This document shows positions 3,675 through 22,648 of a DNA stretch of 64,000 nucleotides, piece by piece. The stretch's first letter is position 1. Each line of letters starts with the position of its first letter. Origin of the DNA: Eledone cirrhosa (Eukaryota); contig OZ024762.1 in NCBI GenBank assembly GCA_964016885.1, positions 12,710,001-12,774,000 on the forward strand, in the 5' to 3' direction. Both the position numbers and the translations under genes were made by a program. Below the pieces are notes generated by a model, which saw only the letters and a program-made list of their open reading frames with translations, did not search any database and was not told where the DNA came from.

Positions 3675-3765
3675 GTGGGTATGTATGTGTATGTGTGTAT
3701 ATACATGAGTGTGTTTATATATGTGTGTAGATGTGTGTATATATTTATATATATATATGTATATA
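2100..3765. repeat. Compound (TA)n/(TG)n/(TATG)n microsatellite field with an internal ~390-bp duplication
   Basis: Seen directly. Anchors atttgtagttgatgtg (~2470 and ~2858) and tctgactgtgtgtattaatt (~2605 and ~2998) recur about 390 bp apart. Confidence 0.9.
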
Positions 3766-3992
3766 TACAATATTAAATAAATGGAAAACTATATTTATAA
3801 AACCATATCTATTTCATTATATATATTTCGGGGATATATAATGAAATAGATATAATGAAATAGATATGGTTTTATAAATATAGTTTTCCATTTATTTAAT
3901 ATTGTAAATATACTCCAAATATTTGTCGAGTGCTTTTATATCAGTTATAAATATTTACTAGTTGTAACCCAACAATTTTAAATATAACTTTA
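3763..3992 (+). mobile_element. Small palindromic PLE-derived element (inverted repeat plus 3' tail); retains only the 3' half of a hammerhead
   Basis: ~60-bp inverted repeat (acaatattaaataaatggaaaactatatttataaaaccatatctatttcattata and its reverse complement), then a tail tactccaaatatttgtcgagtgc...aaatataact homologous to the tail at 21715-21800. The minus strand reads GAAA-TATATA-TA-ATGAAA. Confidence 0.7.
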
Positions 3993-3996
3993 CATG

Positions 3997-4057
<61 letters not shown>

Positions 4058-4257
4058 TGTGAATGTATATATATATATATGTATGCGTGTATGTGTGTAT
4101 ATATATATATATGTGTGTATGTGTGTATATGTCTATGTATTTATATGTGTATATGTATGTGTCTTTATATGTATGCGTGTGTGTATGTGTATGCGTATTT
4201 ATATGGTGTGTGTATGTATATGTATGTGTATGTATGTGTTTATGTATATGTGTATGT

Positions 4258-6165
4258 ATCATCATCATCATCATCACCGTTTTACGTCCGTTCTTCCACG
4301 CTAGCATGGGTTAGACGGGTTGTCCTGTTGTGGGCAGTGTCTGGTCGGCTGACCATGCCTTGCTCATACAGGAACTGATCTGGCTTGATTTCTACAGCTG
4401 GATGCCCTTCCTAACACCAACCTCATTTACAGTGAGTGCTGGGTGCTTTTTCGTGGCGCCTACACGTCCACTTTACAGTGTGGGCTGGGTGCTTTTTTGC
4501 CGTGGCACCTCCACGACCACCTTGCGGTGGGGTGGGGGTGGGGGGGCATATTGTTTATATGTCGGGTACCCTGTATTACTGCGTGACGCCAGAAGTCACG
4601 GTCGTGTGTCATTGACTTTGAGAGGTGTAGTTGGGTAAGGTCGGCTTTTATCACCTCATCCCAAGTCATCTTGGGTCTCCCCACTCCGCGGTTTCCATCA
4701 GCTCTGCACCTTTTTATGCAGCTGTCATCCTTCATACGCATCACATGTCCATACCAGCGTAACCGCCTCTCCTGCACGCAGCATTTGATTCCTCTTATGC
4801 TCAGTCTCTCTCTCAATTCCTTTATGCTTTGTCGTTCACGTATATTACTGTTACACATCCATCGGAGCATGCAGGCTTCGTTTCTCTCTAATCTACGTAA
4901 GTCTTCCACCTTCAGCGCCCAGGTCTCACTACCATGCAACATCGCTGTTCGGATACACGCATCATACAGTCTGCCTTTCTTTCTGAGGGAGAAGCCTTTT
5001 GCAGCTAGCAGTGGTAGTAGTTCCCTAAACTTCTTCCATCCCGTTCTTACCCTAGTTATTGTACTTTCTGAGCACCCACCTCCGTTGCTAATTCGGTCAC
5101 CTAGGTAGCAGAAGCTGTCTACTGTTTCTACAGGGCCCTCCCAGAGATTGGTGGTACTTGTTTCCTGTGGCTGTTTGCTTGCTGTTTCAGCACAGCTGCT
5201 GCATGTGAATCCTACATTCTTAATTAAGCTTCCTGAGATCCCGCTACATCTCTTGTGTACCCATTGTTTGCATTTGGGGCAGAGAATGGAGTTCCTACCT
5301 ACACCTTTCCTACATACTGAGCAAGGCCATTTCCCTGAGGGGATCTGGGTTCTGTTTTCTCGTCTACTTATAAGGACCTTAGTCTTTGTCATGTTGACTT
5401 TGAGGCCCTTTCTCTCTAGTCCCTGCTTCCAGGTTTGGAATTTATTCTCTAGTTCTACCATAGATTCAGCTATGAGTGCGAGGTCATCAGCATACAGGAG
5501 TTCCCATGGGCATCCGGTCTTAAACTCCTTCGTTATTGCCTGCAGGACTATGATGAACAGGAGAGGGCTAAGAACAGAGCCTTGGTGGACCCCAACCTGT
5601 ACGCTAAATTCCTCGCTATACTCATTGCCAATCCTAACTTTGCTGACTGCTCCCCTATACATGGCTTGTACCGCTTTCACAAGCCATTCATCTACTCCTA
5701 GTTTTCTAAGAGCCCACCAGATTACTGCACGTGGAACTCTGTCAAAGGCTTTCTCAAGGTCGACAAATGCCAAGTAGAGTGGCTTACTTTTAGCTAGGTA
5801 CTTTTCCTGTAATTGCCTCACAAGGAAGAGGGCATCAGTGGTGCCTTTCCCTGGTACAAACCCAAATTGCATCTCGTCTATATTCACCCGGTCCCTAATC
5901 AGCTGTGCTATAACTCTTTCTGTTACTTTCATGACCTGGTCCATCAACTTTATACCTCTATAGTTTCCTCTATCTAGTGCATCGCCTTTACCTTTGTAGC
6001 AGTTGACAATGATGCTACTGCACCAATCTTTTGGTATGGCCCCCTCTAGTATTACCTGGTTAACGATACGTGTGGTTATAGTGTGACCTACAGACCCAGA
6101 TGCCTTCAGCATCTCGGCAGCTATACCCGATGGACCGGTTGCCTTCCCTATCTTCATATCTCTGA
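4258..6165 (-). mobile_element. RTE-clade LINE, 5'-truncated (RT domain with an internal PHD-like finger) plus 3' UTR and (GAT)n tail
   Basis: ORF 4460-6157: GKATGPSGI, NYRGIKL, QFGF.PG.GTTDA, FVDLEKAFDRV, GVHQGSVLSPLLF, LYADDL, YLGD, RRLRWYGHVMRM, GRPKMTW. Tail ends ...ggacgtaaaacggtgatgatgat. Confidence 0.95.
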
Positions 6166-6221
6166 TTGCCTTACTTACTACGCTGCCGTATGTGTATGTA
6201 TATATATGTATATATATATAT

Positions 6222-6253
<32 letters not shown>

Positions 6254-6318
6254 GTATGTATATCGATGTATATTTTATATTTTACTTGTTTATATGTGTA
6301 TATGTATGTATATATGTA

Positions 6319-6353
<35 letters not shown>

Positions 6354-6953
6354 TTTCTTGATATATTTCTTTTTTCTTTTTCTTTTCTTTTTATTTCTAA
6401 ATTTATAGATACATTTATAAATAGGCAGTCTGTTGACACCAGTGAATACTGACCTCTTCCCCCCCCCCCCCACCTAATTTCTGTATCTGGATCTAAATAT
6501 GTGTGGCAGTGTTTATGTGCGCGCATTAATGTCCATATGCTTATGATAATACTATATACACATATATATGTATGTGGGTGTGTGTGTGTGTATGTATGTT
6601 CGTGGTTGTGTGTATGTTTATGCGTATACGCGCGTGTGTGTGTGAATGTACGTATATGTGTGAGTATATGAATGCGTGTGTATATTTGTTTTTATGTTTA
6701 TGTGTGTATGCGTGTTTTATCTGTAGATTATGGACATACAGAGACATTAGCCTTGAATTTTTGTATTTACATACATCTTTTTGGCATGCGTATGCATGTG
6801 AACATATATCTTTATGCATATCAGTGAACGAAGTTAATTACATATATACACACACCTAACTGTATAAACTTTTTGTATTTTCATTGGTCAATTTGAACTC
6901 TGTTCCCAAACAGACCTGTAATTTTGAATTGTTGTTATTATCAATAAATATAT

Positions 6954-7107
6954 TTCATTATTTCTGAAGACGGCATATATATGTGTTGGTATGTATATTT
7001 AATCTTGATAGTTTGTATAATTTTGTATAATTTTGTACATAGATCTGTTGAATATGCATGCCAATTCTAACACATATATATCCTAGAAACGATCGTTAAA
7101 TAATGAA
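6954..7107 (+). ncRNA. Type I hammerhead ribozyme (PLE pLTR type) with an enlarged stem II
   Basis: Perfect 10-bp stem I ttcattattt (6954-63) / aaataatgaa (7098-7107); core CTGAAGA 6964-70; stem II atatatatgtgttgg / ctaacacatatatat; GAAA 7086-89; palindromic stem III acgatcgt; GUU cleavage triplet. Confidence 0.75.
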
Positions 7108-7167
7108 CTTTTTTTGTTTAATATAAGGAACTGTTTCATTGTTTTATTCATTATTTTTTTAATATTT

Positions 7168-7381
7168 TATATATATATATATATGTATATGCATATATAT
7201 GTATATGCATATATATGTATATATGTGTATATGTATATATATATGTGTGTGTGTGTGTATATATATATGTATATGCATATATATATGTATATATGTATAT
7301 GTATATATATATGTATATATGTATATATATATATATGTATATATATGTATATATATATATGTATATATATATGTATATATG

Positions 7382-7440
<59 letters not shown>

Positions 7441-7570
7441 GTATATGTATACATATATGTATATGTATACATATATGTATATGTATACATATATGTATAT
7501 GTATACATATATGTATATATATATATATGTATATATATGTATATATATGTGTATATATATATGTATATAT
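7168..7570. repeat. (TA)n/(TATG)n microsatellite
   Basis: Seen directly. Confidence 0.9.
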
Positions 7571-8105
7571 ATCATCATCATCATCATCACCGTTTTACGT
7601 CCGTTCTTCCACGCTAGCATGGGTTAGACGGGTTGTCCTGTTGTGGGCAGTGTCTGGTCGGCTGACCATGCCTTGCTCATACAGGAACTGATTTGGCTTG
7701 ATTTCTACAGCTGGATGCCCTTCCTAACACCAACCTCATTTACAGTGAATGCTGGGTGCTTTTTCGTGGCGCCTACACGTCCACTTTACAGTGTGGGCTG
7801 GGTGCTTTTTTACCATGGTGCCTACATGTCCACTTTACAGTGTGGGCTGGGTGCTTTTTTGCTGTGGCACCTCCACGACCACCTTGCGGTGGGGGGTGTG
7901 GGGGCGTATTGTCTATATGCTTCAGCTTGTACCCATGGGAGGTCGGGTACTCTGTATTACTGCGTGACGCCAGAGGTCACGGTCGTGTGTCATTGCCTTT
8001 GAGAGGTGTAATTGGGTAAGGTCGGCTTTTATCACCTCATCCCAGGTCATCTTGGGTCTCCCCACTCCGCGGTTGGGTAAAAGCTGAAGCATATAGACAA
8101 TATGC
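7571..8105 (-). mobile_element. RTE LINE 3' fragment with a short inverted duplication at its 5' junction
   Basis: Nearly identical to 4258-4690; encodes GRPKMTWDEVIKADL..TRPPMGTS*. 8073-8105 is the reverse complement of ~7904-7936. Confidence 0.9.
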
Positions 8106-8315
8106 ATCATGTGACCATACCAACGTAGTCTTCTCTCGAGTAAACAACATCTGATCCCTCTTATTTCTAATTTTTCCCTTTAGACTATATATATATATGT
8201 CCTGGGGGTAGACTGTATATATATGTCCCGGAGGTAGACTGTATATATATATGCCGGAGGTAGACTGTATATATATATATATATCCTTACTTCCACTCTC
8301 TTTTTTTTTTTTCAG

Positions 8316-9365
8316 GAATCTATCACAGTTTATTGAAGAAGATATTTCCACCGAAGGATCATCATCAGACACAGAGGGACACTTAGACAACAACGACAGT
8401 AACAGCAACATTATTGAGGAAGAATCAGCCACTGCTGCGTACATGAATGCTATGTCGTCTGTCAGAAGCAGCGCAAGACACCGCTTGCACAATAACGACT
8501 GCAACAGCAACAACAACAGCAACAACAACAACAACAACAACAACAACAGCAACAGCAGCCACAAATCTTTGCAGAGACGGCGTCACAAAGGAGGATTAAA
8601 TAAGTCGGCTTTGATATCATCGGAGAGATTTATCGATAGCGACTGGCTTGTCGAGGATATGCAGCCATCCAAGCGGAAACGTGTCGCAGCAAGGGGCAAT
8701 TATTTTACTACAGGTTCGGCCGTACGGAACAACTCCGACAACAAGAACAAGAATATTTCGGCCGACTCTGTTGCAGCAGCTCCTGCAAAACCATCTTCTC
8801 TATCTTCTTATTCAAAACGTTTGAAGTCGTCGTCAAAGCAATATTCTGTTGTTGCCGACGACGACCATGATGATGATGATGATGATAATGATAATGATGA
8901 TGATGATTACGATGATGAAGAACGCTGTGGATTCGATGACAGCATTACCGGTAGTAACCTCCCAGATCCATTTATCTCTGATATTGATTTAACAAACACC
9001 ACCGCCAGCAGCGGCACCATCAGCAGCACCGCCACCGGTCAGCAGTGGGGCAGCAACAGATTCAGTTCCTCGTTAATATCAGCACCGAACCACGGGGCCG
9101 CCACACCAACACCGATGTTTAATTGGAGTTCTGATCTCCGTTTGTCTGACACCGCTGACACCCTCGGCTCAGTACAGCAGCAGCCGTCATCCTCTGTCTA
9201 CTCTTCCACCTTCATACCACCACCATTGTCATCATCATCATCATCATCATCATCTACAACATTACCACTAAGAACTGACAGCGTTGCTTATGGCACAGTC
9301 CACCCGTTCACCAAAGTGTTTGTGAAGGTCGGCACGCTGTGCTTCTGTGTGCCTCTTGCCCCCAG
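8316..9365 (+). CDS. TONSL: TONSL exon (acidic, low-complexity linker and start of the UBL domain)
   Basis: Polypyrimidine tract with ttcag| acceptor and ag|gtgag donor. AYMNAMSSVRSS, ALISSERFIDSDWLVEDM and KVFVKVGTLCFCVP match TONSL motifs as I recall them. Phase 2-2. Confidence 0.85.
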
Positions 9366-9487
9366 GTGAGTCCAATATACCATGTGTCCCCTATTATAAG
9401 CCCTACCCCTACAAAGTAACCCCTAGCATTATTTTTATGTTACTGTCCAATATAAATCCTGCCCTGAAAATATATATATATGTATGT

Positions 9488-9521
<34 letters not shown>

Positions 9522-10208
9522 CCGTTTTACATCCGTTCTTCCACGCTAGCACGGGTTAGACGGGTTGTCCTGTTGTGGGCAGTGTCTGGTCGGCTGACCA
9601 TGCCTTGCTCATACAGGAACTGATTCTGGCTTTATTTCTACAGCTGGATGCTCTTCCTAACACCAACCTCATTTACAGTGAGTGCTGGGTGCTTTTTTAC
9701 CATGGTGCCTACACGTCCACTTTACAGTGTGGGCTGGGTGCTTTTTTGCCGTGGCACCTCCACGACCACCTTGCAGTGGGAAGGTGTGGGGGCATACTGT
9801 CTATATGCTTCAGCTTGTACCCATGGGAGGTCGGGTACTCTGTATTACTGCGTGACGCCAGAGGTCACGGTCGTGTGTCATTGCCTTTGAGAGGTGTAAT
9901 TGGATAAGGTCGTCTTTTATCACCTCATCCAAGGTCATCTTGGGTCTCCCCACTCCGCGGTTTCCATTGACTTCTAGTGCTCTGCACCTTTTTATGCAGC
10001 TGTCATCCTCCATACGCATCACATGTCCATACCAGCGCAACCGCCTCTCCTGCACACAGCATTTGATTCCTCTTATGCTCAGTCTCTCTCTCAATTCATT
10101 TATGCTTTGCTGTTCGCGTATATTACTATTACACATCCATTGCAGCATGCAGGCTTCGTTTCTCTCTAATCTACGTAAGTCTTCCACCTTCAGTGCCCTG
10201 GTCTCACT
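9488..10208 (-). mobile_element. RTE LINE 3' fragment
   Basis: SETRALKVEDLRRLERNE...RRLRWYGHVMRM...GRPK; same 3' UTR and tail as the 4258 copy. Confidence 0.92.
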
Positions 10209-10293
10209 GTGTGTATATATATATATCATCATCTTCATCATCATCATCTTCATCATCATCTTCATCATACGTCCGCTTCGCCCTGCTTGCATA

Positions 10294-10482
10294 TATATGT
10301 TAAGTATTTCCGAAGAAAAAGCAAAGGAAAAAAAGAGTGCTCTATGTATAATACAGAGCTATTTAATTAGAAAGTGACCTTCCTTCTGATGAGTGAACCA
10401 GGCGTATGTTAATACTGTTTAGGGTGCTGAAACCTTTGGTAATGGAGTAGTTATGTATTGTGTTGGTCACTTTCTAATTATA
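10294..10482 (-). mobile_element. Small PLE-derived element: tailed copy on the minus strand plus an inverted, hammerhead-bearing copy
   Basis: 16-bp inverted repeat taattagaaagtgacc (10364-79) / ggtcactttctaatta (10465-80); tail hairpin gctct..agagc; (TA)n flanks. Confidence 0.6.
10380..10447 (+). ncRNA. Type I hammerhead ribozyme
   Basis: CTGATGA 10386-92; GAAA 10429-32; stem III ACC-ttt-GGT; GUA cleavage site; stem I ttcctt/atggag with one mismatch; imperfect stem II containing the gtat-gtta-atac hairpin. Confidence 0.65.
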
Positions 10483-10771
10483 TATATATATATATGTCTG
10501 TGTGTCCCTCCTGAATGTATATGCCTCTCCCTGTATGTGTGTGTGCCTGTCCCTGTATGTGCCTGTCTCTGTGTGTATGTGTCCCTGTGTATGTGTGTGT
10601 CCCTGTGTGTGTCCCTGTATGTGTGTCTGTCCCTGTGTGTGTGTCTGTGCCTGTATGTGTGTGTCCCTGTGTGTATGTGTGTCTGTCCCTGTATGTGTGT
10701 GTGTCTGTCCTTGTATGTGTGTGTCACTGTGTGTATGTGTGTGTGTCTGTATATATATATGTGTGTGTGTC

Positions 10772-10817
<46 letters not shown>

Positions 10818-10849
10818 CTTGTGTGTGTATGTATATATGTGTGTGAGTA

Positions 10850-10894
<45 letters not shown>

Positions 10895-11065
10895 ATATAT
10901 ATGTGTGTGTGTATATATATGTGTGTGTGTATGTATATGTGTGTGTGTATATATATATGTGTGTGTCTATATATATATATGTATATATGTGTGTGTGTGT
11001 GTGTGTATATATATGTGTGTGTGTCTATATGTATATATATGTGTGTGTGTGTGTGTGCTTGTGTG

Positions 11066-11103
<38 letters not shown>

Positions 11104-11130
11104 AGTGTGTATATATATATGTGTGTGTGT
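10483..11130. repeat. (TG)n/(TA)n microsatellite with gtccctgt-anchored units
   Basis: Seen directly. Confidence 0.9.
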
Positions 11131-11164
11131 CATTTCTGTTTACTTCAGCAATTATCTCTTCCAG

Positions 11165-11321
11165 TGACCGATCCAAAACAATCTTGTGGCTTAACCAGGA
11201 GACGTCACGGCGTGTCTATGTCCAGTGTCATTTGAAGCCGATTCTGTCGCTGACCACAAAATCTGGGGCCATTCTTGACTCCGATGACAAAATCTCTATG
11301 GTTATTGAAAATGGAGAAGAG
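11165..11321 (+). CDS. TONSL: TONSL exon (UBL domain)
   Basis: ttccag| acceptor and gag|gtaagg donor; DRSKTILWLNQETSRRVYVQCHLKPILSLTTKSGAILDSDDKISMVIENGEE; phase 2-0. Confidence 0.9.
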
Positions 11322-11360
11322 GTAAGGATCAGAGGCTGTCTTTCCCCTACACTTGTTTAA

Positions 11361-11510
11361 CCTTTTAGCATTTAAACCAGTCGTAACTGGCCAGAATTCT
11401 CTCACCTCTTTCTGTTGAAACAGGCTGTAACCAGCTGCTCATACTGATGTTAAGGTATTCTCAAAGTAAATATCAAAATCTCATAGATTCAATATTATGT
11501 GAGATAATTG
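11361..11510 (+). mobile_element. piggyBac-like MITE, left part only
   Basis: TTAA followed by ccttttagcatttaaacc; matches the reverse complement of the complete copy at 30499-30691 (gccagaattctct, aaaatctcatagattc.atattatgtgagataatt). Confidence 0.7.
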
Positions 11511-11665
11511 TCTGGGGTGGAGGGGTGTCAAGAAAATAAAGTACTAATCCCCCATTACCCCACCCCTCCCAGCTCTGCCCTCACCCCAACCCTTGACCTG
11601 CCTCATCCTGCCTCTCCAATTTGTTAACTTTGTCCTTATATGTGCTTATGTCTTTGCTTTACTAG

Positions 11666-11744
11666 CTTGAAGGTTGCGTTACCTCGTGGGACTTGCCTCC
11701 ATTCAAAGATCGTTACATAGAGGCGTGTAAAGCTAATAAGACAG
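11666..11744 (+). CDS. TONSL: TONSL exon (UBL/LRR junction)
   Basis: actag| acceptor and cag|gtgagt donor; LEGCVTSWDLPPFKDRYIEACKANKT contains the TONSL signature VTSWDLPP..RY..AC. Phase 0-1. Not in the ORF track. Confidence 0.95.
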
Positions 11745-11966: not shown

Positions 11967-12322
11967 TTTGTGACAATATTTCTCATGAAATTCATTCAAT
12001 TGATTAATTAAGAATTTTGAAGGATCTACTGAAATTAATAATGAAAGCTTGTCAAAGAAAATGGGTTTGGAGGACCCTTCAGTTGTGTCAAAGACATGAC
12101 CACCACCCTAGTGTTATGTGAATTAATTATGTGAGATATTATGTGAGGTAAAGCCTTTACTGTGAAAATACAATAGTATATATAGAGTAATGTAAATGTT
12201 ATGTGAGATATTATGTGAGGTAAAGCCTTTACTGTGAAAATACAATAGTATATATAGAGTAATGTAAATGTTATGTGAGATATTATGTGAGGTAAAGCCT
12301 TTACTGTGAAAATACAATAGTA

Positions 12323-12665
12323 TCATCATCATCATCATTTCATTTTACGTCCGCTTTTCCCTGCTAGCAAGGGTGGGACAGGAACTGATTCTGGCTTGAT
12401 TTCTACAGCTGGATGCCCTTCCTAACACCAACCTCATTTACAGTGAGTGCTGGGTGCTTTTTTGCCGTGGCACCTCCACGACCACTTTGCAGTGGAATGA
12501 TATGGACCCCAGTCCCTATCATCTCATTTTTACAGCTGAGTAAACTGGAGCAATGTGAAATAAAGTGTCTTGCTCAAGGAAACAACACATCACCCGGTCT
12601 GAGAATTGAACTCACAACCTTTCGATTGCAAGGCCAATGCTCTAACCATTAAGCCATGTGCCTCC
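12323..12665 (-). mobile_element. tRNA-derived SINE with RTE-type 3' tail (family 1)
   Basis: A box tggcttaatgg, B box gagttcaattct, core ttccttgagcaagacactttatttcac, tail ...gaaaagcggacgtaaaatgaaatgatgat. Confidence 0.9.
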
Positions 12666-13056
12666 ATATATAGAGTATATATAGAGTAATGTAAATGTTA
12701 TGTGAGGTAAAGCCTTTACTGTGAAAATACAATAGTATATATAGAGTAATGTAAATGTTATGTGAGATATTATGTGAGGTAAAGCCTTTACTGTGAAAAT
12801 ATAATAGTATATATAGAGTGGTTTCTTTATTTGCCACTAGGGCACAAAAGGTAGGGACAGATACAAGGGGGGAAGTTTACATATAATTAACGAGTACAAA
12901 AATATAACAATGAAATAACAACAACAAACGAAGTCCTCAATAGGGAGGGGGCATTAACATGGGTCGCACACACCCCGGAAAAAATGTGTAACCCTTCTCC
13001 TCAGGAGCACAAAGAGTAGGTGCTTCCCTCGTCTCCGCTTTTTCCTCTTCTTTCAC

Positions 13057-16000
13057 CTACAGGCTGATATAGAGAGAAGACCCATTCACTCTGGCCATTC
13101 TCCCTACTTTCACCCACCTTTCATAAAACTTGCTGGGGTAGAGCACCTCTCTCTCCATTCTGATCCTTCTTTTAAAATGGTATTTGAAAAAGGGGACCAG
13201 TTGTTGGCCGGAGAGAAAGGTGTCTGACCTCAGCCCTTTCAGCCTCGTCCACCATACAACTTCTTTAGCCATGGCTACCACACAGAGAAAAACCGCCTCT
13301 CCTTCGTTTTTGAAAGGGGGAGGCGGTTTGATCGTGACAATGGACTCGGTGGTCAACCGGATTGGTCCCACCCTCGACAGTAGTCGTTCCACATAGCCCC
13401 ACAGGTCAGCAATGCCTGGGCAGTGTACGAATGCGTGCGCAACGGTTTCGTCATCATGCACGCATCTCGGACAGATCTTATTCAAAGGATCTCTACCCAG
13501 GCTCCCATGCCTGTGGAGCTTGTCTCGAACGGGTAGAGCCCCTCGGTAGCACTGCCAAGCCAGGGACTTTTGGAAGTTGTCCATCGGTCCAGGGCCAAAC
13601 GTCCTACCGAACAGACTGGCCAGTTCATCTTCCTCCATGCCTAGAGCTTCTCCGAGAGCATCGTCGCACCTGCTGCGTACCAACCCTCTATAGAATGTCG
13701 AGGTGGAGTCTCCACTGATTGCCGGGTCCGCTTTCCAGAGGGCCGTGAGCGCCTGGGCACATTCAATGTGCCAGTCGCCCACTTTTCTCGGTCTTTGCTT
13801 GACCCAGGATTGCAGCTCGGTGAGCGAGACGAGTCTGGGAAAGGCTCGCCTCACAAACGGGGCCCACACCGGTTGACCGGTGAGGAATACCTGGAGGTGC
13901 CGTAGCCTTAATGCGTGTTTACGCATCTGTAGCCACGGCATCCCCAGCCCTCCTTTCGAAGGGTGTTGACAGCAGATGGATCTCCTCACCAAAGGGGTCC
14001 GCTTGTTCCAAAGAAATTGGAACAGCGCGCACTCCATTTTGGCGAGTCTTTTCACTGGGCAAGGCACGACGGTCAAGCGGTAGTAGATGACGGATGCTAT
14101 ATAAGTATTCGCCACCTCCGCTCGACCTTTCAGGGATAGTTTGCACTGGGCCCACTTCTGGGTGAGTGCAAACACCCTGGCCGTTACCTCGTTCCAGTTT
14201 TTCTCCACCTGGAGGTCTGGTCCGAACCAGACCCCAAGCAGCTTCACCGGGCCCTCCGTCCAGCGTCCGACGACGTCGTTGGAGGGCATCGGTTTGCCTC
14301 TCCATGTTCCGAGTTGCAAACCGACGGACTTGTCCCGGTTCAGCTTGGCTCCTGTAAACCTTTCATATTCCTCCAGTAAGGTGCCGATCTCACCGATTTG
14401 CGAGGTTTTCGACACCATTACTGTCACGTCATCGGCGTAGGCCGACGCCGCTTTCTGCAATCCCGGTTCCAAAGGGATGCCCTGCAACCGCTCCAACTTC
14501 CGCAGTAGTGGCTCAAGAGCCAGCACATACAGTAGGGAGGAGAGAGGGCATCCCTGTCGGATGGATCGCATGATTTGGAACGGCTCCGAGAGGTGGCCGT
14601 TCACCTTGACCCTTGAGCAGACGTTGCTGCTGTGCATCGCAGCAATCCAACCCCTGAAAACGGGTCCGAAGCCTGCCGCCGCGAGCACCGCATCCAGGTA
14701 ACGATGGTCAACCCTATCGAAAGCTTTAGATTGATCCAAGTTGATCAGGGCCCCACCAAAGCCGGGTTCATTCCCTACCCTCTCTATGATGTATCGCATA
14801 AGGTGGAGATTGTCGTGAATGGACCTGGACGGGATTGCGCATGTCTGCGCTTCTCCCACCAGGTTTCCAACGACAAGCGCCAACCTCTTCGCTAACACCT
14901 TGGCCAAAATCTTTAACTCTGTATTTAGCAGAGTTATGGGCCTGAAGTTACTTATGTCATCCCCCTTGTTCTCATCCTTCCTCACCAGCGTAACTACGCC
15001 CTTGGTCACAGAACTGGGAATTCTCCCGTTCTGCTGCCAGTTGCAGTAGACCGCTTCGAGGATATCGGAGAACAAGTCCGGCATCGCTACATATAGCTCG
15101 TATGGTAGACCATCGAGACCCGGGGATTTGCGTTTGCCGCATTGGCTCAGCGCCGCCCCTATCTCAGCAGCTGAAATCGTCCTTTCGCAGGACTCCGCCT
15201 CCGCGTCCGAGAGGCGCGGCAGACCGTCGAGGTATGGATTGAAATCCATAGTCTCACCCGGCGCGCCGCCCCTCTCGAACAGTCGTGCAAAGTGCCGCTG
15301 AAAGGCCGCACACATCTGCCCAGGTTCAAGGATCACACGCCCATCCTGGTCCTTCAAAGACCGAATCGTGGACTTGTTCCCACTTTTTGCCTCTGTCACT
15401 CGGGCCCAGCTTACAGCTTTGGCTCCCTCATTACCCAGAGCACGTATTTTACTCCTGACAACGCAGCCTTCATGCTTCACCTCAAAGAACTGGTCTAAGG
15501 CCATTCTTGATGCCAGCACGCCGGCTACATTGCCACTCCTAATCGCCTCTTCTACTCTATCTACTAATTCCCTTTCCGTCTTGTTCCTATCCCTTGCTAA
15601 TTCCTGACTAAAACCTATCGATTCTATTCTAATTGCTCTCTTAAGAGAGCTCCACCACCTGTTGTTGACAATTGCCCCTGTCAAATTCTGCTTAACTAAC
15701 GTGCTAATCCGTTTACTGTAAGCTTTGCTTCTCGGTAAGGACAAGTTCAGCTTCCAGTAACCGGGTCCCTGTCTATGGGTTCTATCAAGGTTGGCTATGC
15801 AGGTCACTAACTTGTGATCCGAATAGTCAACCATGAACATTTTTGGACAGCTAAATGTGTCCCTATCGTTCTCTCTAACTAGGACCCTATCTAGGTACGA
15901 CCTAGATGTTCCACTGCGATTGGTCCACGTCCATAGTGGTACAGTCGGAAAATCTAATCGATATCTATCGGCCAGGTCAAATCGGCCGATTAACCTTTTG

Positions 16001-16494
16001 AGGCTTTTACACCCCCCTCTATTGGCACATGCCCCTACATAGTCCCAACGTGCATCCAGGATACCATTCCAGTCCCCCACTAAAAGCAAGGAGCGGGACG
16101 TTCCCAGAAAAGTTTCCAGACGTTGGAAGTATTCCGGCCGCGCTGCCCAAAAAGGGGCGTACACAGCTATTAGTCTAAGGGCTCCACTTTCACTACTGCC
16201 GACGTCTAAAACCACCAGTCGACCCTCCGGGTCCAGGTGCACCTTCTGTATGGCGAGGCCCAGGTGTTTTCGCAGCAGAACGACAACTCCACCCCCACCC
16301 CCCGGTTGACAGAGAGATGCGAAGATCTCAAAGTCGTCGAAGAGGGGCGCCAGTTGGTGCTCGCTGCTGATCCTGGACTCGCAAATAGCCATTACATCCA
16401 TTCTATGTGACCTGAGATCGTTTAAAAGTTTGCCTTGTTTCCAAGACAGTCCCAGGCCACGTACATTCAGAAACCCAACTCTTATATCAGCCAT
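13057..16494 (-). CDS. ORF2: APE endonuclease, reverse transcriptase and C-terminal CCHC (zf-RVT-like)
   Basis: FLNVRGL, VYAP, GDWN, YLDRV, SDHK; SPGLDGLPYE, NFRPITLLN, LDQSKAFDRV, RQGCPLS, YADD; CPRC..DETVAHAFVHC. 1145 aa without a stop. Confidence 0.95.
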   Translation of the reverse strand: MADIRVGFLNVRGLGLSWKQGKLLNDLRSHRMDVMAICESRISSEHQLAPLFDDFEIFASLCQPGGGGGVVVLLRKHLGLAIQKVHLDPEGRLVVLDVGSSESGALRLIAVYAPFWAARPEYFQRLETFLGTSRSLLLVGDWNGILDARWDYVGACANRGGCKSLKRLIGRFDLADRYRLDFPTVPLWTWTNRSGTSRSYLDRVLVRENDRDTFSCPKMFMVDYSDHKLVTCIANLDRTHRQGPGYWKLNLSLPRSKAYSKRISTLVKQNLTGAIVNNRWWSSLKRAIRIESIGFSQELARDRNKTERELVDRVEEAIRSGNVAGVLASRMALDQFFEVKHEGCVVRSKIRALGNEGAKAVSWARVTEAKSGNKSTIRSLKDQDGRVILEPGQMCAAFQRHFARLFERGGAPGETMDFNPYLDGLPRLSDAEAESCERTISAAEIGAALSQCGKRKSPGLDGLPYELYVAMPDLFSDILEAVYCNWQQNGRIPSSVTKGVVTLVRKDENKGDDISNFRPITLLNTELKILAKVLAKRLALVVGNLVGEAQTCAIPSRSIHDNLHLMRYIIERVGNEPGFGGALINLDQSKAFDRVDHRYLDAVLAAAGFGPVFRGWIAAMHSSNVCSRVKVNGHLSEPFQIMRSIRQGCPLSSLLYVLALEPLLRKLERLQGIPLEPGLQKAASAYADDVTVMVSKTSQIGEIGTLLEEYERFTGAKLNRDKSVGLQLGTWRGKPMPSNDVVGRWTEGPVKLLGVWFGPDLQVEKNWNEVTARVFALTQKWAQCKLSLKGRAEVANTYIASVIYYRLTVVPCPVKRLAKMECALFQFLWNKRTPLVRRSICCQHPSKGGLGMPWLQMRKHALRLRHLQVFLTGQPVWAPFVRRAFPRLVSLTELQSWVKQRPRKVGDWHIECAQALTALWKADPAISGDSTSTFYRGLVRSRCDDALGEALGMEEDELASLFGRTFGPGPMDNFQKSLAWQCYRGALPVRDKLHRHGSLGRDPLNKICPRCVHDDETVAHAFVHCPGIADLWGYVERLLSRVGPIRLTTESIVTIKPPPPFKNEGEAVFLCVVAMAKEVVWWTRLKGLRSDTFLSGQQLVPFFKYHFKRRIRMEREVLYPSKFYERWVKVGRMARVNGSSLYISL

Positions 16495-16515
16495 GTTGGT
16501 TAAAAGAGGAAGGAC

Positions 16516-18258
16516 CTACCTGTTCGGCTCCTGAGGAGCAGGTTGCACAATATCCATGGGCGTATTGGAGGGGTTGTTTGGTGGGGTGTTGTTCTGTGGT
16601 GGAGTGGGGGTGTTTGGTGAGGTGTGGGTGGGGAAACGTTTCAAGAGGACGCGGTTATAGGGTCGAGTACATGTTTTCCCCACGTCCTCAGGAAAGTTCT
16701 CTCTTAGTTTTGCATAGGTGTCCATTGGGAGTCTTATCATTTTTAAATGCGGTTTGTTGGCCGCGCTTGCAAAGAATTGCCCTTCAGTTTCCACCAAAGG
16801 GTCTTTGTGTATTGTTTTTACTAGTTCTTTGTTATTTGTGTTAATGTATGTATACTGTTTTATTTGTGTTGTGTTTGTTTGTTGTTCTTGTGTGTGCTTA
16901 CGTTTTGTTGTATGTGTTATGTTTTGGGGTGGGGCGGATTTTGTTTGTTCTGTTTGTTTTGTTTTTGTTGGTGGTTGTGTGTTTGTTTCGTTTATGTTCG
17001 AGTGGTGCTTTCTTTTTTTCCTTTTTACAGGTTGGAAGGGTTCCCCCTCTTCGTCACTAGGTGCCGTTTCCGCTGGGTCCTCGTCCGTGCTGTCGGGTAG
17101 TGGTGTATTTTGGGGTTTTGTTGTATTTGTGTGTGTTTTGGGAGTTGTTTTGGGTGGGGCCGTGTCTTGTGTTATTTTTCCCTGTTGTTTTTGTTGTTGT
17201 TGTGGTGGTGGTGGTGGAGGTGGTGGTGGTGGTGGTGGTGGCGGTGGTGGTGTGTGGGGTGTAGGCAAAAGAGCCTTTTTTTTTGTCAATTGAGGACAAG
17301 CAGCCCTTAGATGACCCCTGCTTGAACAGTAGTAACATATGGGCCTCCTACCCTCGGCTGAAATATATATAAATGTTTCTCCATCGAGGGACACCCTCTG
17401 TGGTATTCTAGCGATTCGTTCTGGTCTCATTTGGACCAGAACCTCCACGCTCAAACCGCCGAAAACGTCTGTGGTGACTTCTCCTACTGAGAGGATTCCG
17501 TCCTCGTCTTCTAAAAATCCTGTTAGTACCCAGGAAATGCATGCATTTGGCCGGATTCCGGAGACCCTTATCTTCTGCGTTCTTTTCCCTAAATATGTGG
17601 GGAAAAATGTATATATCTTGGAAACAATTGGTGCCACAGAGTATTTCCTGGCCGTCAATTGATCCTTCATTAGGACCGTTATATTCCCATAGAGTGGCCC
17701 TTTTTGTATGAACGATATATCACTCCACACATTTTTTAGGACCAGCTCAATCTCTTTTTGGGATAATTGAGTTGGTTTCCTTGTTATGTTGGAAATTGTT
17801 CTGAAAGATATCGTTCTTAGCGTCGTGTCTCTTTTGATTTCTTGTGGGGAGGTGATTGTGAAGTCTCCTCCTTCTTTGAAAGTTACATACTGTTTCGCTT
17901 CCTTCATCTTTTCTCTCAGAGTTGTAATGTCCAGTTGCTTGCAGGTTTGTGTTTTCCGGACCGCCTGTGCAAAGGAGGTACCAGTAGTGGGTTCACTTTG
18001 TTTGGTGTTATCGTTATTTTTTCCTTGGTTGGTGTTGTGACTATTGCTGTTATTGTCGTTGATGTTTTTGTCTGCGTTTATGTGACTTTCTGGGTTTTCA
18101 CCCATTTCTACAAATTTTTCTTTTAATTCCGTGTTCCATGTTTCTTTTGCAGAAGTGAGGAGGGAAGACTTAGAGCCTTGTGCTTCTAGCTTCTCTGTAT
18201 CACCTTTCTTAGGGGGCGTGGCTTTCACGTTAGGATGAGATGTGAAAATTCCGTCCAT
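16516..18258 (-). CDS. ORF1 (gag-like) with a CCHC zinc knuckle and a Pro-rich tail
   Basis: First ATG at 18258; SFAQAV motif, CYYCSSRGHLRAAC, poly-P and FQPVKRKKRK; 580 aa. Confidence 0.85.
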   Translation of the reverse strand: MDGIFTSHPNVKATPPKKGDTEKLEAQGSKSSLLTSAKETWNTELKEKFVEMGENPESHINADKNINDNNSNSHNTNQGKNNDNTKQSEPTTGTSFAQAVRKTQTCKQLDITTLREKMKEAKQYVTFKEGGDFTITSPQEIKRDTTLRTISFRTISNITRKPTQLSQKEIELVLKNVWSDISFIQKGPLYGNITVLMKDQLTARKYSVAPIVSKIYTFFPTYLGKRTQKIRVSGIRPNACISWVLTGFLEDEDGILSVGEVTTDVFGGLSVEVLVQMRPERIARIPQRVSLDGETFIYISAEGRRPICYYCSSRGHLRAACPQLTKKKALLPTPHTPPPPPPPPPPPPPPPPQQQQKQQGKITQDTAPPKTTPKTHTNTTKPQNTPLPDSTDEDPAETAPSDEEGEPFQPVKRKKRKHHSNINETNTQPPTKTKQTEQTKSAPPQNITHTTKRKHTQEQQTNTTQIKQYTYINTNNKELVKTIHKDPLVETEGQFFASAANKPHLKMIRLPMDTYAKLRENFPEDVGKTCTRPYNRVLLKRFPTHTSPNTPTPPQNNTPPNNPSNTPMDIVQPAPQEPNR

Positions 18259-21200
18259 TTCTATTAGTTTGCCGTAATAAATTTTTAACTGGAAAATTCG
18301 CCCCAAAAAGGGGCGAAAATAAATAAACTCAAAGTTTGACGACCAAGGCAAGGGGTTAACGTATATTACAGTATAAAAAATTAATCAAAACTCACTTTTT
18401 GAGTAAGTAAATCCGACTCGGTAGCCGAGCTTGTTCACACACGTCAACACACGTCTCTCGTATACGAGATGTTATGTGAGATATTATGTGAGGTAAAGTC
18501 TTTACTGTGAAAATACAATAGTATATATAGAGTAATGTAAATGTTATGTGAGGTAAAGTCTTTACTGTGAAAATACAATAATATATATAGAGTAATGTAA
18601 ATGTTATGCGAGATATTATGTAAGGTAAAGTCTTTACTGTGAAAATACAATAGTATATATAGAGTAATGTAAATGTTATGTGAGATATTATGTGAGGTAA
18701 AGTCTTTACTGTGAAAATACAATAGTATATATAGAGTAATGTAAATGTTATGTCATATATTATGTGAGGTAAAGTCTTTACTGTGAAAATACAATAGTAT
18801 ATATAGAGTAATGTAAATGTTATGTGAGATATTATGTGAGGTAAAGTCTTTACTGTGAAAATACAATAATATATATAGAGTAATGTAAATGTTATGTGAG
18901 ATATTATGTAAGGTAAAGTCTTTACTGTGAAAATACAATAGTATATATAGAGTAATGTAAATGTTATGTGAGATAATTATGTGAGGTAAAGTCTTTACTG
19001 TGAAAATACAATAGTATATATAGAGTAATGTAAATGTTATGTGAGATATTATGTGAGGTAAAGCCTTTACTGTGAAAATACAATAGTATATATAGAGTAA
19101 TGTAAATGTTATGTGAGATATTATGTGAGGTAAAGTCTTTACTGTGAAAATACAATAGTATATATAGAGTAATGTAAATGTTATGTGATATATTATGTGA
19201 GGTAAAGTCTTTACTGTGAAAATACAATAGTATATATAGAGTAATGTAAATGTTATGTGAGATATTATGTGAGGTAAAGTCTTTACTGTGAAAATACAAT
19301 AGTATATATAGAGTAATATAAATGTTATGCGAGATATTATGTGAGGTAAAGCCTTTACTGTGAAAATACAATAGTATATATAGAGTAATGTAAATGTTAT
19401 GTGAGATATTATGTGAGGTAAAGCCTTTACTGTGAAAATACAATAGTATATATAGAGTAATATAAATGTTATGCGAGATATTATGTGAGGTAAAGCCTTT
19501 ACTGTGAAAATACAATAGTATATATAGAGTAATGTAAATGTTATGTGAGATATTATGTGAGGTAAAGCCTTTACTGTGAAAATACAATAGTATATATAGA
19601 GTAATATAAATGTTATGCGAGATATTATGTGAGGTAAAGCCTTTACTGTGAAAATACAATAGTATATATAGAGTAATGTAAATGTTATGTGAGATATGTG
19701 AGGTAAAGCCTTTACTGTGAAAATACAATAGTATATATAGAGTAATGTAAATGTTATGTGAGGTAAAGCCTCTACTGTGAAAATACAATAGTATATATAG
19801 AGTAATGTAAATGTTATGTGAGATAATTATGTGAGGTAAAGTCTTTACTGTGAAAATACAATAATATATATAGAGTAATGTAAATGTTATGCGAGATATT
19901 ATGTAAGGTAAAGTCTTTACTGTGAAAATACAATAGTATATATAGAGTAATGTAAATGTTATGTGAGATATGTGAGGTAAAGCCTTTACTGTGAAAATAC
20001 AATAGTATATATAGAGTAATGTAAATTTTATGCGAGATATTATGTGAGGTAAAGCCTTTACTGTGAAAATACAATAGTATATATAGAGTAATGTAAATGT
20101 TATGTGAGATATTATGTGAGGTAAAGTCTTTACTGTGACAATACAATAGTATATATAGAGTAATGTAAATGTTATGTGAGATAATTATGTGAGGTAAAGT
20201 CTTTACTGTGAAAATACAATAATATATATAGAGTAATGTAAATGTTATGTGAGATATTATGTGAGGTAAAGCCTTTACTGTGAAAATACAATAGTATATA
20301 TAGAGTAATATAAATGTTATGCGAGATATTATGTGAGGTAAAGCCTTTACTGTGAAAATACAATAGTATATATAGAGTAATGTAAATGTTATGCGAGATA
20401 TTATGTGAGGTAAAGCCTTTACTGTGAAAATACAATAGTATATGTAGAGTAATGTAAATGTTATGTGAGATATTATGTGAGGTAAAGTCTTTACTGTGAC
20501 AATACAATAGTATATATAGAGTAATGTAAATGTTATGTGAGATATTATGTGAGGTAAAGTCTTTACTGTGACAATACAATAGTATATATAGAGTAATGTA
20601 AATGTTATGTGAGATATTATGTGAGGTAAAGTCTTTACTGTGAAAATACAATAGTATATGTAGAGTAATGTAAATGTTATGTGAGATATTATGTGAGGTA
20701 AAGTCTTTACTGTGAAAATACAATAATATATATAGAGTAATGTAAATGTTATGTGAGATATTATGTGAGGTAAAGTCTTTACTGTGAAAATACAATAGTA
20801 TATATAGAGTAATATAAATGTTATGCGAGATATTATGTGAGGTAAAGCCTTTACTGTGAAAATACAATAGTATATGTAGAGTAATGTAAATGTTATGTGA
20901 GATATTATGTGAGGTAAAGTCTTTACTGTGAAAATACAATAGTATATATAGAGTAATGTAAATGTTAAAGGATTAAACGAAAGATGTATGAAATATGTTG
21001 ACTGAGGAATAAAATCAACCATTTTTGGAAGAAGTGTGGACCAGATTCTGAATAATTAATTATGTAATATAGGAAGAGGAGGAGATCCTGATTTTGGTGG
21101 AAGTCAATTATTTTCTGATTGGTCAGTTGTGGCCAGGCAGCTGATTTTTTCAAATATCCTGACTAAAGTACTGTCAAATATTAGGCTGTACAATTACTGC

Positions 21201-21314
21201 GTAGTGAAACCGGATCCTGGACCCACTTACAATGTTAAGTGGGTAAACTGGGCAGTCAATATTAACGTAAGATTATGCACTGACCTATCCCCACCATCGT
21301 TTTTAGGTATAAAA

Positions 21315-21383
<69 letters not shown>

Positions 21384-21450
21384 CATCATTGTTTACCGTC
21401 TATCTTCTACGCTAGCATGGGTTAGACAAGTAATTGTTTCACTATTATGG

Positions 21451-21499
<49 letters not shown>

Positions 21500-21537
21500 A
21501 TATTAACAAATGGAAACTATATTTATAAAACCATATT

Positions 21538-21603
21538 TATTTCATTATACATATTTCAAGGGCCACCAAGGCAAACTATGGTGCGCTTTCATCAGATAAA
21601 ATA
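21538..21603 (-). ncRNA. Minimal type I hammerhead ribozyme
   Basis: Minus strand: tattttat-CTGATGA-aagcgcaccatagtttgccttggtggccctt-GAAA-tatgta-TA-atgaaata. Confidence 0.75.
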
Positions 21604-21615
21604 TAATATAGGTTA

Positions 21616-21681
21616 TATTTTATCTGATGAAAGTGCACCATAGTTTGCCTTGGTGGCCCTTGAAATATGTATAATGAAATA
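21616..21681 (+). ncRNA. Minimal type I hammerhead ribozyme
   Basis: tattttat-CTGATGA(21624-30)-aagtgcacca..tggtggccctt-GAAA(21662-65)-tatgta-TA-atgaaata. Confidence 0.75.
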
Positions 21682-22116
21682 AATATAGTTTCCATTTGTT
21701 AATATATTGTATATTTACTCCAATAATTTGTTGAGTGCTTTATATCAGTTATAAAAATATTTTGCTTGTTGTATCCCAACAAATTAAATATAACTTCTAC
21801 ATATATATATATATATTGGTGATCGAATAACGTGAAAACAAGCGGGTAGCGATCTCTAGACCTACCAGTTCAGAGAAACAATTGTCAGCAATGAGATTAA
21901 AAACCTTTTTTGTATAGCAAACCGTGTCACTCTTCTTTCCTGATATATCATTACTCCAAGTGTTTACAACATAGGAATTACAGCGTACTCGCAGCATCAC
22001 TATGGAAACGCCTTGTTGAGTCAAACTTAGCCAAGCGCTGATATCATCCACTACCCGGAGTACCATAACTGGACTACACTTAAGTGAACTACCTATAACA
22101 ATAATTTGTTAACCCG

Positions 22117-22140
<24 letters not shown>

Positions 22141-22147
<7 letters not shown>

Positions 22148-22310
22148 ATATTTGGGGAGGGTCATATTGTTATAATATTACCAGAAAACACACTCAACTG
22201 TTTGGTTTGGATTGGTTTTCATTTCTGTATATTTTATACCTTTATAGTTAATTTATCAGGCAATCAATGTTTATCATTGATTGACCAACGGTTAAAAATA
22301 CAGATATAAA
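22141..22310 (-). mobile_element. Degenerate relative of the tailed PLE mini-elements
   Basis: Minus-strand tail aatccaaa..ttgagtg...aaatataac, a weak inverted repeat and (TA)n flanks; no hammerhead core. Confidence 0.35.
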
Positions 22311-22342
22311 TATATATATATATATAAATATATATATATATA

Positions 22343-22624
22343 AGATCAAAAGATGGTTAAAAGAGTTCCAAGTATTTTATTATGGGCATTTCAAAAATAA
22401 ATATCAACATGGGATGATATTTGCGTTCTCATCAGATAAAATAGGGAGACATGATATGAAGCTTAAAAACACTTGCGAGCAGTGAAGTGTTAAATCAACA
22501 TACGGAACTCTTTTAACCATCTTTTGATCTCATATTATTTATACTCCAGTCCTATAAACTATTGAGTGGTACTTATCCGATATTTGCATTGCTTTATTGT
22601 TCTACAATAAAACTCACTTCCTAC
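22343..22624 (+). mobile_element. PLE-derived mini-element (inverted hammerhead copy plus tailed copy)
   Basis: 27-bp perfect inverted repeat agatcaaaagatggttaaaagagttcc (22343-69) / 22504-30; tail tactccag..attgagtg...cttcctac. Confidence 0.7.
22373..22443 (-). ncRNA. Minimal type I hammerhead ribozyme
   Basis: Minus strand: tattttat-CTGATGA-gaacgcaaatatca..tgatatttattttt-GAAA-tg-cc-ca-TA-ataaaata, with a perfect 8-bp stem I. Confidence 0.75.
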
Positions 22625-22648
22625 ATACATACATACATACATACATAA

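What the first reader, a model, noticed from the sequence alone, without database searches (positions are those of the whole stretch)
3763..22624. Family of tiny palindromic, hammerhead-bearing elements embedded in (TA)n tracts
Seen: at least four 190-310 bp inserts (3763, 10294, 21491, 22343; perhaps 22141) share one architecture. Each has a tail-less inverted copy joined head-to-head with a copy carrying a 70-90 nt tail that begins with an (a/g)ctc...gag(t/c) hairpin, and each is flanked by (TA)n. Three have complete CUGAUGA/GAAA/UH cores with stem I pairing. 3763 and 21491 are close homologues; the others diverge in sequence but keep the layout. Established: inverted truncated pLTRs, 3' tails and hammerheads are PLE hallmarks. 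Inference: an abundant class of minimal PLE/retrozyme-like insertions, possibly made by priming both strands of a cut in (TA)n. I do not know of a description of this family in cephalopods.
Basis: partly seen in the sequence, partly recalled or inferred. Interest (0 to 1): 0.75.

Follow-up and report, generated by a model that had tools for sequence, protein, structure and literature searches.

The report
Back-to-back stubs of Penelope-type retrotransposons
These tiny hairpin-shaped inserts are cut-short ends of three protein-coding jumping genes of a known group, and almost every one joins a tailed copy to a tail-less copy, which likely records how the enzyme copies its RNA into both sides of one DNA cut.

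Summary
The four inserts are real and built as described; 22141 is a solo end, not a palindrome. They are not a separate minimal element. Each matches the hammerhead-bearing end (pLTR) and tail of one of three protein-coding, (TA)n-targeting Penelope-like retrotransposons of the Hydra clade (RT, DKT, CxCX5C, C-terminal endonuclease; two families have units of about 3.9 kb). The clade, inverted truncated ends and one-sided tail are published, including an Octopus member. Roughly 110,000 such insertions are estimated from a 990-kb systematic sample. What adds interest is regularity: 14 of 14 sampled pairs are tailed/tail-less, and no true tailed/tailed pair was found among 116. Either arm can be the longer, which rules out simple fold-back. 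Both end sites lie about 8 nt before a shared CTC..GAG hairpin, and 5' ends pile up at one family-specific position. Best model (inferred): both ends of a (TA)n break prime reverse transcription at two hairpin-marked sites of one RNA, often its 5' leader; the stubs are dead ends. This scan reported the same clade, hairpins and 5' stop on other DNA of this genome.

The parts
3768..3837 (-). Family A (older subfamily): tail-less inverted arm, truncated inside the hammerhead (GAAA onward only)
   Evidence: 84% to ends of full-length A copies L081/L197
3834..3904 (+). Family A: tailed arm, pLTR part (with a 14-bp tandem duplication); shares ATAT with the left arm at the junction
3905..3994 (+). 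Family A tail (90 nt) with hairpin H1
10298..10364 (-). Family C tail (67 nt) with hairpin H1 at 10339-10359
   Evidence: 90% to the pLTR-tail-ORF junctions L349/L355/L356
10365..10379 (-). Family C tailed arm, only 15 nt of pLTR; ACC shared at the junction
10377..10479 (+). Family C tail-less arm with hammerhead core (CTGATGA 10386-10392, GAAA 10429-10432, UA 10440-10441); stem II base mutated
21496..21615 (-). Family A tail-less inverted arm with a complete minimal type I hammerhead (core at 21595)
21613..21709 (+). Family A tailed arm, pLTR part with hammerhead (CTGATGA 21624-21630, GAAA 21662-21665, UA 21672-21673); TTA shared at the junction
21710..21801 (+). Family A tail (92 nt) with hairpin H1 at 21717-21737; in full-length elements this is the leader between the 5' pLTR and the ATG
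22143..22310 (-). Solo tail-less 3' end of a fourth hammerhead-bearing family; not palindromic, no core in this copy
22343..22504 (-). Family B tail-less inverted arm with complete hammerhead (core at 22435); ends at the family's 5' pile-up position (about -162)
   Evidence: 97.5% to the end of coding copy L082
22503..22530 (+). Family B tailed arm, 28 nt of pLTR
22531..22625 (+). Family B tail (95 nt) with hairpin H1 at 22543-22568

Best explanation
The inserts are short back-to-back copies of the ribozyme-bearing end of three protein-coding Hydra-clade Penelope-like retrotransposons, likely made when both ends of one cut in (TA)n primed reverse transcription at two neighbouring start sites of the element's RNA. 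SHOWN: each arm matches the pLTR of a coding element; the tail is the leader between the 5' pLTR and the ATG; copies end at only two sites (pLTR end, tail end); joined pairs carry one of each; either arm may be the longer; each site lies about 8 nt before an RCTC..GAGY hairpin (H1 in the tail, H2 just past it). INFERRED: the GIY-YIG-type endonuclease cuts both strands in (TA)n; RT molecules bound at H1 and H2 of one RNA each extend one DNA end; the two short cDNAs are then joined at their 3' ends, often by a few shared bases. The smallest products likely copy the 5' leader of the mRNA up to its start, which would explain the 5' pile-up. The stubs lack H2 and a second same-strand hammerhead, so they likely cannot regenerate their own layout or act as retrozymes. 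My odds: identity as truncated Hydra-clade ends 0.93; twin priming 0.7; one RNA read at two hairpins 0.5; 5'-leader origin 0.45.
For: Continuum to coding elements: L081 = (TA)n + inverted tail-less arm + truncated ORF + about 1.4 kb 3'UTR + hammerhead + tail + (TA)n; full-length A and B (809-codon open frame, copies up to 99.8% alike); for C, pLTR-tail-leader-ORF junctions in 6 of 14 fetched stretches. Predicted fold of the B protein (pLDDT 83) has telomerase RTs as its first two PDB matches. Ends: 49 of 52 ends in the 990-kb sample have (TA)4 within 30 nt against 10.8% background. Asymmetry: 12 of 12 automatically paired plus 2 by eye in the systematic sample (P=6e-5 against 50%); 16 of 18 in a tail-free query. 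Of 116 pairs: 105 tailed/tail-less, 4 apparent tailed/tailed that resolve to tailed/tail-less at the element's far end, 4 tail-less/tail-less, 3 with a partial tail. Hairpins. 5' wall: A 25 arms end at -175 to -189 and none at -190 to -204 (of 136); B 17 at -155 to -166 and 2 at -167 to -179 (of 65). In vitro, a Poseidon PLE cuts and extends both strands and starts at two sites that bound the tail (PMC11167929).
Against: No RNA or biochemical data for these families. Many of the 116 pairs were selected by queries that contained a tail or a junction; only the 14 systematic pairs, the bystanders and the tail-free query are free of that. The 5'-wall counts are mostly from query-selected copies; among unselected B arms 6 of 13 fall in the bin, of which one is an alignment overrun, two are one event and one is the window's own. 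Both walls sit on short palindromes (CATATG in B, TCCAGGA in A), so annealing or an RT stop explains them as well as a transcription start. Junction microhomology was cleanly resolved in only 14 of 66 pairs (11 with 2 nt or more; null 19%); 52 were blurred by later mutations or inserts. Four tail-less/tail-less pairs show the rule is not absolute. H1/H2 stems are weak in A and B (-2 to -6.7 kcal/mol). One other locus (L032) has the same B junction beside the same neighbouring repeat as the window, which could mean that a palindrome was moved as a unit.
Confidence: 0.78

Rival explanations
1. Both DNA ends are primed, but on two separate RNA molecules (or by a template jump), with the first and second strand each favouring a different start site.
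For: Gives the same tailed/tail-less products. In window 21491, L002 and L003 a 13-14 nt deletion is present in the tailed arm only, as if the arms had different templates.
Against: Needs a separate reason why the two ends differ; the Poseidon enzyme showed no difference in start site between strands. The deletion lies between short direct repeats and may recur by slippage.
Confidence: 0.25
2. The inverted arm arises by fold-back or self-priming at a short palindrome, as proposed for rotifer Penelope elements (antisense-template self-priming, PMC3846280).
For: Several junction centres are palindromes (CATATG in L219, GAATTC in L153, near-palindrome TCCAGGA in L003, L041, L070), and some pairs are near-perfect hairpins.
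Against: A fold-back copy cannot hold sequence that the first arm lacks. The tail-less arm is much longer than the pLTR part of the tailed arm in window 10294 (103 vs 15 nt) and 22343 (162 vs 28 nt), and in L041, L234 and L283 the tailed arm is cut inside the tail. Tail-less longer in 39, tailed longer in 14, within 10 nt in 8 of 61 (lengths are underestimates and partly query-selected).
Confidence: 0.1
3. The palindromes are small non-autonomous elements or retrozymes that spread as units through self-cleaved or circular RNA.
For: High copy number and intact cores (105 of 131 A, 59 of 64 B, 27 of 44 C arms long enough to hold one). Five loci share one B junction, and L032 shares it together with a neighbouring repeat.
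Against: Junctions differ from copy to copy. The five shared-junction loci were picked by a query containing that junction and belong to two subfamilies. No head-to-tail hammerheads; the two cores in 21491 are on opposite strands and fold into one long duplex (-162 kcal/mol). True tandem hammerhead arrays in this genome are other sequences.
Confidence: 0.06
4. They are MITEs (DNA transposons) with terminal inverted repeats and TA duplications.
For: Short, inverted repeats, TA flanks.
Against: One end always extends past the inverted repeat by the tail; inner junctions vary; the sequence continues into RT-coding ORFs.
Confidence: 0.01

Closest known systems
Hydra clade of C-terminal EN+ Penelope-like elements, e.g. 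Hydra-1_Obim of Octopus bimaculoides (Craig et al. 2021, PMC8557442; passages, section 11 and supplement part 2 read)
   Same: RW(K/R/T) and DKT motifs, CxCX5C linker, CxxC and CxH in the endonuclease, hammerhead near the 3' end, (TA)n insertion, inverted 5'-truncated copy, tail at one end only.
   Different: Units of about 3.9 kb with a 1.3-1.5 kb 3'UTR (published: generally under 3 kb); hammerheads with a long stem II, a pyrimidine mismatch near its base and a 1-2 bp stem III, unlike the listed Hydra-1_oBim motif; tails of 67-95 nt (published 30-40); very high copy number.
Poseidon element of Anolis (PAc), internal RT initiation (Frangieh et al. 2024, PMC11167929; parts 1-2 of 4 read)
   Same: Tail bounded by two end sites just past the pLTR; AT-rich target; both strands cut and extended.
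   Different: In PAc the tail lies inside the ORF; here it lies in the leader before the ATG, and each site is followed by a repeated hairpin motif. The parts read do not describe joined tailed/tail-less pairs.
Inverted pLTRs with optional one-sided tail in Adineta vaga Penelope elements (PMC3846280; passages read)
   Same: Head-to-head inverted pLTRs, tail on one of them, palindromes or microhomology at junctions.
   Different: There explained by self-priming on an antisense template; TSDs of 8-10 bp are visible there but cannot be read in (TA)n here.
Animal non-LTR retrozymes (10.64898/2026.07.22.740005, parts 1-3 of 5 read) and opposite-strand minimal hammerheads of truncated PLEs (PMC4209133, part 1 of 4 and passages read)
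   Same: Non-coding, pLTR-related, type I minimal hammerheads; PMC4209133 already notes pairs 100-700 bp apart on opposite strands and ties most solo motifs to truncated PLEs.
   Different: Retrozymes are head-to-tail arrays with two or more hammerheads on one strand; these are head-to-head pairs with variable junctions.

Membership tests
Hydra-clade PLE | Single ORF with RT related to telomerase RT | tested here: met
   YRDD ORFs in A and B; predicted fold matches TERT first. Pfam finds nothing above its cut-offs. C: N-terminal and RT parts by tblastn.
Hydra-clade PLE | C-terminal GIY-YIG endonuclease without the CCHH motif, with CxxC and CxH | tested here: met
   By motif in A and B (IVY..YVG / LIY..YFG, CALC / CNLC, CKH / CLH). 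No profile or fold match to a GIY-YIG domain was obtained. C-terminus of family C not fetched.
Hydra-clade PLE | CxCX5C linker | tested here: met
   CNCRNKSNC (A), CNCRIKNKC and CNCPVRTKC (B); family C not seen.
Hydra-clade PLE | RWK and DKT motifs | tested here: met
   DKT in A, B and C; RWR in A, RWT in B, RWK in C (C read from broken copies).
Hydra-clade PLE | Hammerhead in the pLTR and (TA)n insertion | tested here: met
   (49 of 52 ends beside (TA)4).
Hydra-clade PLE | Length generally under 3 kb | tested here: not met
   A and B units are about 3.9 kb. The paper gives this as a general trait, not a diagnostic one.
Hydra-clade PLE | Placement in an RT tree with the published Hydra references | not tested
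   The reference proteins were not available as tool sequences; homologues are mostly unnamed.
EN+ PLE insertion structure | Inverted 5'-truncated copy and tail at one end | tested here: met
Non-LTR retrozyme | Two or more head-to-tail units, each with a hammerhead | tested here: not met
   Window inserts are head-to-head with at most one core per strand.
Non-LTR retrozyme | Self-cleaved linear or circular RNA | not testable with these tools
   No RNA run was listed; no cleavage assay.
MITE / TIR DNA transposon | Terminal inverted repeats at both ends, fixed internal sequence, no RT parent | tested here: not met
   One-sided tail, variable junctions, RT parents.

The most novel reading that the evidence does not exclude
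Hydra-clade PLEs integrate by obligatory asymmetric twin priming: two RT molecules dock on two tandem CTC..GAG hairpins of one RNA, each about 8 nt behind a start site, and extend the two ends of one (TA)n break. When the RNA is read at its 5' leader, the run-off cDNAs join into a fixed-size tailed/tail-less palindrome, so tens of thousands of these stubs are a genomic record of the start sites, the transcription start and the geometry of a telomerase-related enzyme.
Probability: 0.4. Interest if true: 0.7.

Novelty: new member of a known kind. Interest (0 to 1): 0.45.

Why it matters
How PLEs, the closest retroelement relatives of telomerase, make their inverted ends and tails is stated as an open problem in PMC8557442 and PMC11167929. 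Here the products are numerous and regular enough to count: one tail per pair, independent arms, a repeated hairpin behind each start site and a 5' wall. An apparently intact young family (809-codon frame, copies up to 99.8% alike) gives material for a direct in vitro test. About 110,000 insertions (95% range 79,000-154,000, from 37 in 0.99 Mb), a good part of them inverted repeats, are also a possible source of double-stranded RNA in an animal group known for heavy A-to-I editing (own knowledge; not tested). As an element class the finding is ordinary.

Tried and rejected
Rfam on the whole window: the 150 listed of 292 hits were miRNA-type matches to microsatellites and hairpins; no hammerhead family in the targeted scans. 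Pfam on three genome ORFs: nothing above cut-off; weak RVT_1 in 1 of 4 homologues. Expression: no RNA holder listed. Contigs of runs X1-X3 (one sample, type not on record) laid on 21497-21800 show thousands of related pieces and loose (TA)n ends at 21500 and 21714, but no piece spans the stretch; not used as support. Dimer prediction for residues 10-490 of the B protein: no answer, score 0.00. Exact-match junction analysis was confounded by later mutations. The first family C reference included microsatellite-like sequence and gave 461 mostly spurious hits; it was trimmed. Apparent links of family C to ORFs in L064, L154 and L162 were neighbouring elements; the 3.8-kb repeat at L177-179 has no ORF. 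The two tailed copies in L231 are separately (TA)n-flanked with unrelated DNA between them, so they were not counted as a pair. TSDs cannot be read in (TA)n. The figure '18 of 19' was my mis-tally; one search shows 20 of 21 tail-less partners for that query. The stricter descriptor misses nearly all A, B and C hammerheads, so its 69 hits are mostly other families.
Full report
OBSERVATION. The four inserts are in the sequence as described: 3768-3994, 10298-10479, 21496-21801 and 22343-22625. Each has a tail-less arm joined head-to-head to an arm with a 67-95 nt tail, between (TA)n tracts. Three carry CTGATGA/GAAA/UA cores with stem I pairing; 21491 has one on each strand, and 3763 has none. A descriptor finds 4 sites in the window against 0.06 in shuffles. 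The 22141 insert is a solo end of a fourth family.

THREE FAMILIES, EACH ABUNDANT. Searches of the own genome gave 1452 (A, 21491), 782 (B, 22343) and 2063 (C, 10294) first-look candidates, of which 40 each were scored. The top copies share the 3' end and tail but differ in 5' extent and junction. In 99 systematic 10-kb stretches I counted 26 A, 8 B and 3 C insertions, about 112,000 genome-wide (95% Poisson range 79,000-154,000). A includes older subfamilies at 75-93% identity. 49 of 52 ends lie within 30 nt of (TA)4, against 10.8% of random places.

THEY ARE ENDS OF CODING ELEMENTS. Following the longest A copy upstream gave (TA)n, an inverted tail-less arm, a truncated ORF, about 1.4 kb of 3'UTR, the hammerhead, the tail and (TA)n (L081). 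That ORF had 59,696 first-look candidates (146 scored). Full-length A copies read pLTR, tail, about 55 nt, ATG, ORF, 3'UTR, pLTR. Family B has the same plan, with a young subfamily of 809-codon open frames in 3.9-kb units up to 99.8% alike. Family C shows pLTR-tail-leader-ORF junctions in 6 of 14 fetched stretches. The window arms are 81-98% identical to these ends. The proteins carry the motifs that define the Hydra clade in PMC8557442 (section 11): DKT, RW(K/R/T), CxCX5C, CxxC and CxH. The predicted B structure (pLDDT 83, pTM 0.81) matches telomerase RTs first. The paper's supplement lists Hydra-1_Obim from Octopus bimaculoides, (TA)n-inserted and with a hammerhead. No tree with the published references was made.

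ONE TAIL PER PAIR. Automated pairing over all loci held at that point gave 116 head-to-head pairs: 105 tailed/tail-less, 4 tail-less/tail-less, 3 with a partial tail and 4 apparent tailed/tailed. In those four the second tail runs on into the ORF and the element's far end is tail-less (L118/L087, L128/L335, L198, L199). Many pairs were query-selected. The unselected systematic sample gave 12 of 12, plus 2 more by eye; P=6e-5 against independent choice at 50%. A tail-free query gave 16 of 18. That the tail is usually at one end is published qualitatively (PMC8557442 Fig. 2 legend; PMC3846280).

ARMS ARE INDEPENDENT. The tail-less arm often holds pLTR sequence that the tailed arm lacks (103 vs 15 nt at 10294; 162 vs 28 nt at 22343), and the reverse also occurs. 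Neither arm can be a fold-back copy of the other in such pairs. Junctions share 2-11 nt in 11 of the 14 cleanly resolved cases (null 19%); 52 of 66 were unresolved or have inserts, so this is only suggestive.

TWO SITES, TWO HAIRPINS. In full-length elements the tail is the leader that follows the 5' pLTR. Counting misses, ends that do not run into microsatellite show the motif in 49 of 59 (A1), 25 of 29 (B1), 44 of 52 (C1), 7 of 20 (A2), 13 of 21 (B2) and 17 of 34 (C2); many of the listed misses at site 2 are chance anchor matches or other flanks. H2 in C was predicted from A and B and then found, though the search pattern asked for CTC. Inserted tailed copies stop before H2.

A 5' WALL. In A, 25 of 136 arms end 175-189 nt upstream of the pLTR end and none at 190-204. 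In B, 17 of 65 end at 155-166 and 2 at 167-179. Most of these arms are query-selected; the unselected sets agree but are small. PLE promoters lie in or at the pLTR (PMC8557442 passage; PMC2377424 abstract), so the wall may be the RNA 5' end. The walls also coincide with short palindromes, so this is not settled.

MECHANISM. The Anolis Poseidon enzyme cuts AT-rich DNA on both strands, extends both, and starts inside the RNA at two sites that bound the tail; its hammerhead was not needed. Applied here (inference): one break in (TA)n, two primers, two hairpin-marked start sites, two cDNAs joined at their 3' ends. One RNA read at both sites explains the lack of tailed/tailed pairs most simply; two RNAs with strand-specific choice cannot be excluded. 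Because H2 exists only at pLTR-leader junctions, tailed arms must come from the 5' end of an mRNA or from tandem read-through, and the stubs should not reproduce their own layout. The hammerheads are of the minimal type (1-2 bp stem III, palindromic TGCGCA in B), which is weak as a monomer (PMC4209133), and in a palindromic transcript they would be locked in duplex.

NOVELTY. Known: the clade, its presence in Octopus, pLTR hammerheads, (TA)n targeting, inverted truncated copies, one-sided tails, opposite-strand hammerhead pairs. Seven full-text searches gave no paper whose listing or read parts describe the twin hairpins, the strict pairing counts or the 5' wall; the library lacks most subscription papers. 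A 2026 Octopus vulgaris repeat annotation counts Penelope families but does not contain the words hydra, ribozyme or palindrome in its main text. This scan's earlier notes on other DNA of the same genome report the same clade, hairpins, regular back-to-back build and 5' stop. I had reached the clade, the pairing, the hairpins and the 5' pile-up before that look-up; the notes are not independent proof. Verdict: new families of a known kind, with a useful mechanistic record. Interest 0.45.

Noticed in passing
window 1-1002 (+): C-terminal half of another Hydra-clade ORF (CxCX5C, IVY..YIG, CRLC, CNH), 44% identical to family A, open to its stop.
   Followed up: partly
window 22143-22310 (-); L209, L329, L340: Fourth hammerhead family with an internal (TA)n between hammerhead and 3' end and an optional tail that does not start with the CTC..GAG hairpin.
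   Followed up: partly
window 21816-22116; L032:1126-1857: Another dispersed repeat; L032 has it beside a family B palindrome with the same junction as the window, yet the window arm is closer to other B copies. Coincidence or co-movement is unresolved.
   Followed up: partly
L280 (whole), L240, L202:3650-4580: True head-to-tail hammerhead arrays with 467-bp and 310-bp units, in L280 arranged as two diverging blocks; 69 strict hammerhead hits in 990 kb against 0.2 in shuffles.
   Followed up: no
L331-L334; list: Young family B subfamily: dozens of places with identical scores and 821-codon open frames, tandem 3.9-kb units, up to 99.8% alike; probably recently active.
   Followed up: partly
L348, L350, L358, L359: Family C mini-tandems in which the start of the ORF is joined back to the pLTR, giving 150-250 nt repeated units, some with a hammerhead; possible birth of retrozyme-like units.
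   Followed up: no
window 21631-21661, 22428-22393, 10393-10428: All three families have a pyrimidine mismatch (C-C or C-U) near the base of a long stem II.
   Followed up: no
window 53619-53676 (+): Weak hammerhead-like site in a (TA)n-flanked insert with one homologue (L272, 77%).
   Followed up: no
window 18469-20967 and 12134-12819: 72-bp tandem repeat array with related copies upstream; also a 1.25-kb repeat in four copies (37230, 40720, 45423, 51049).
   Followed up: no
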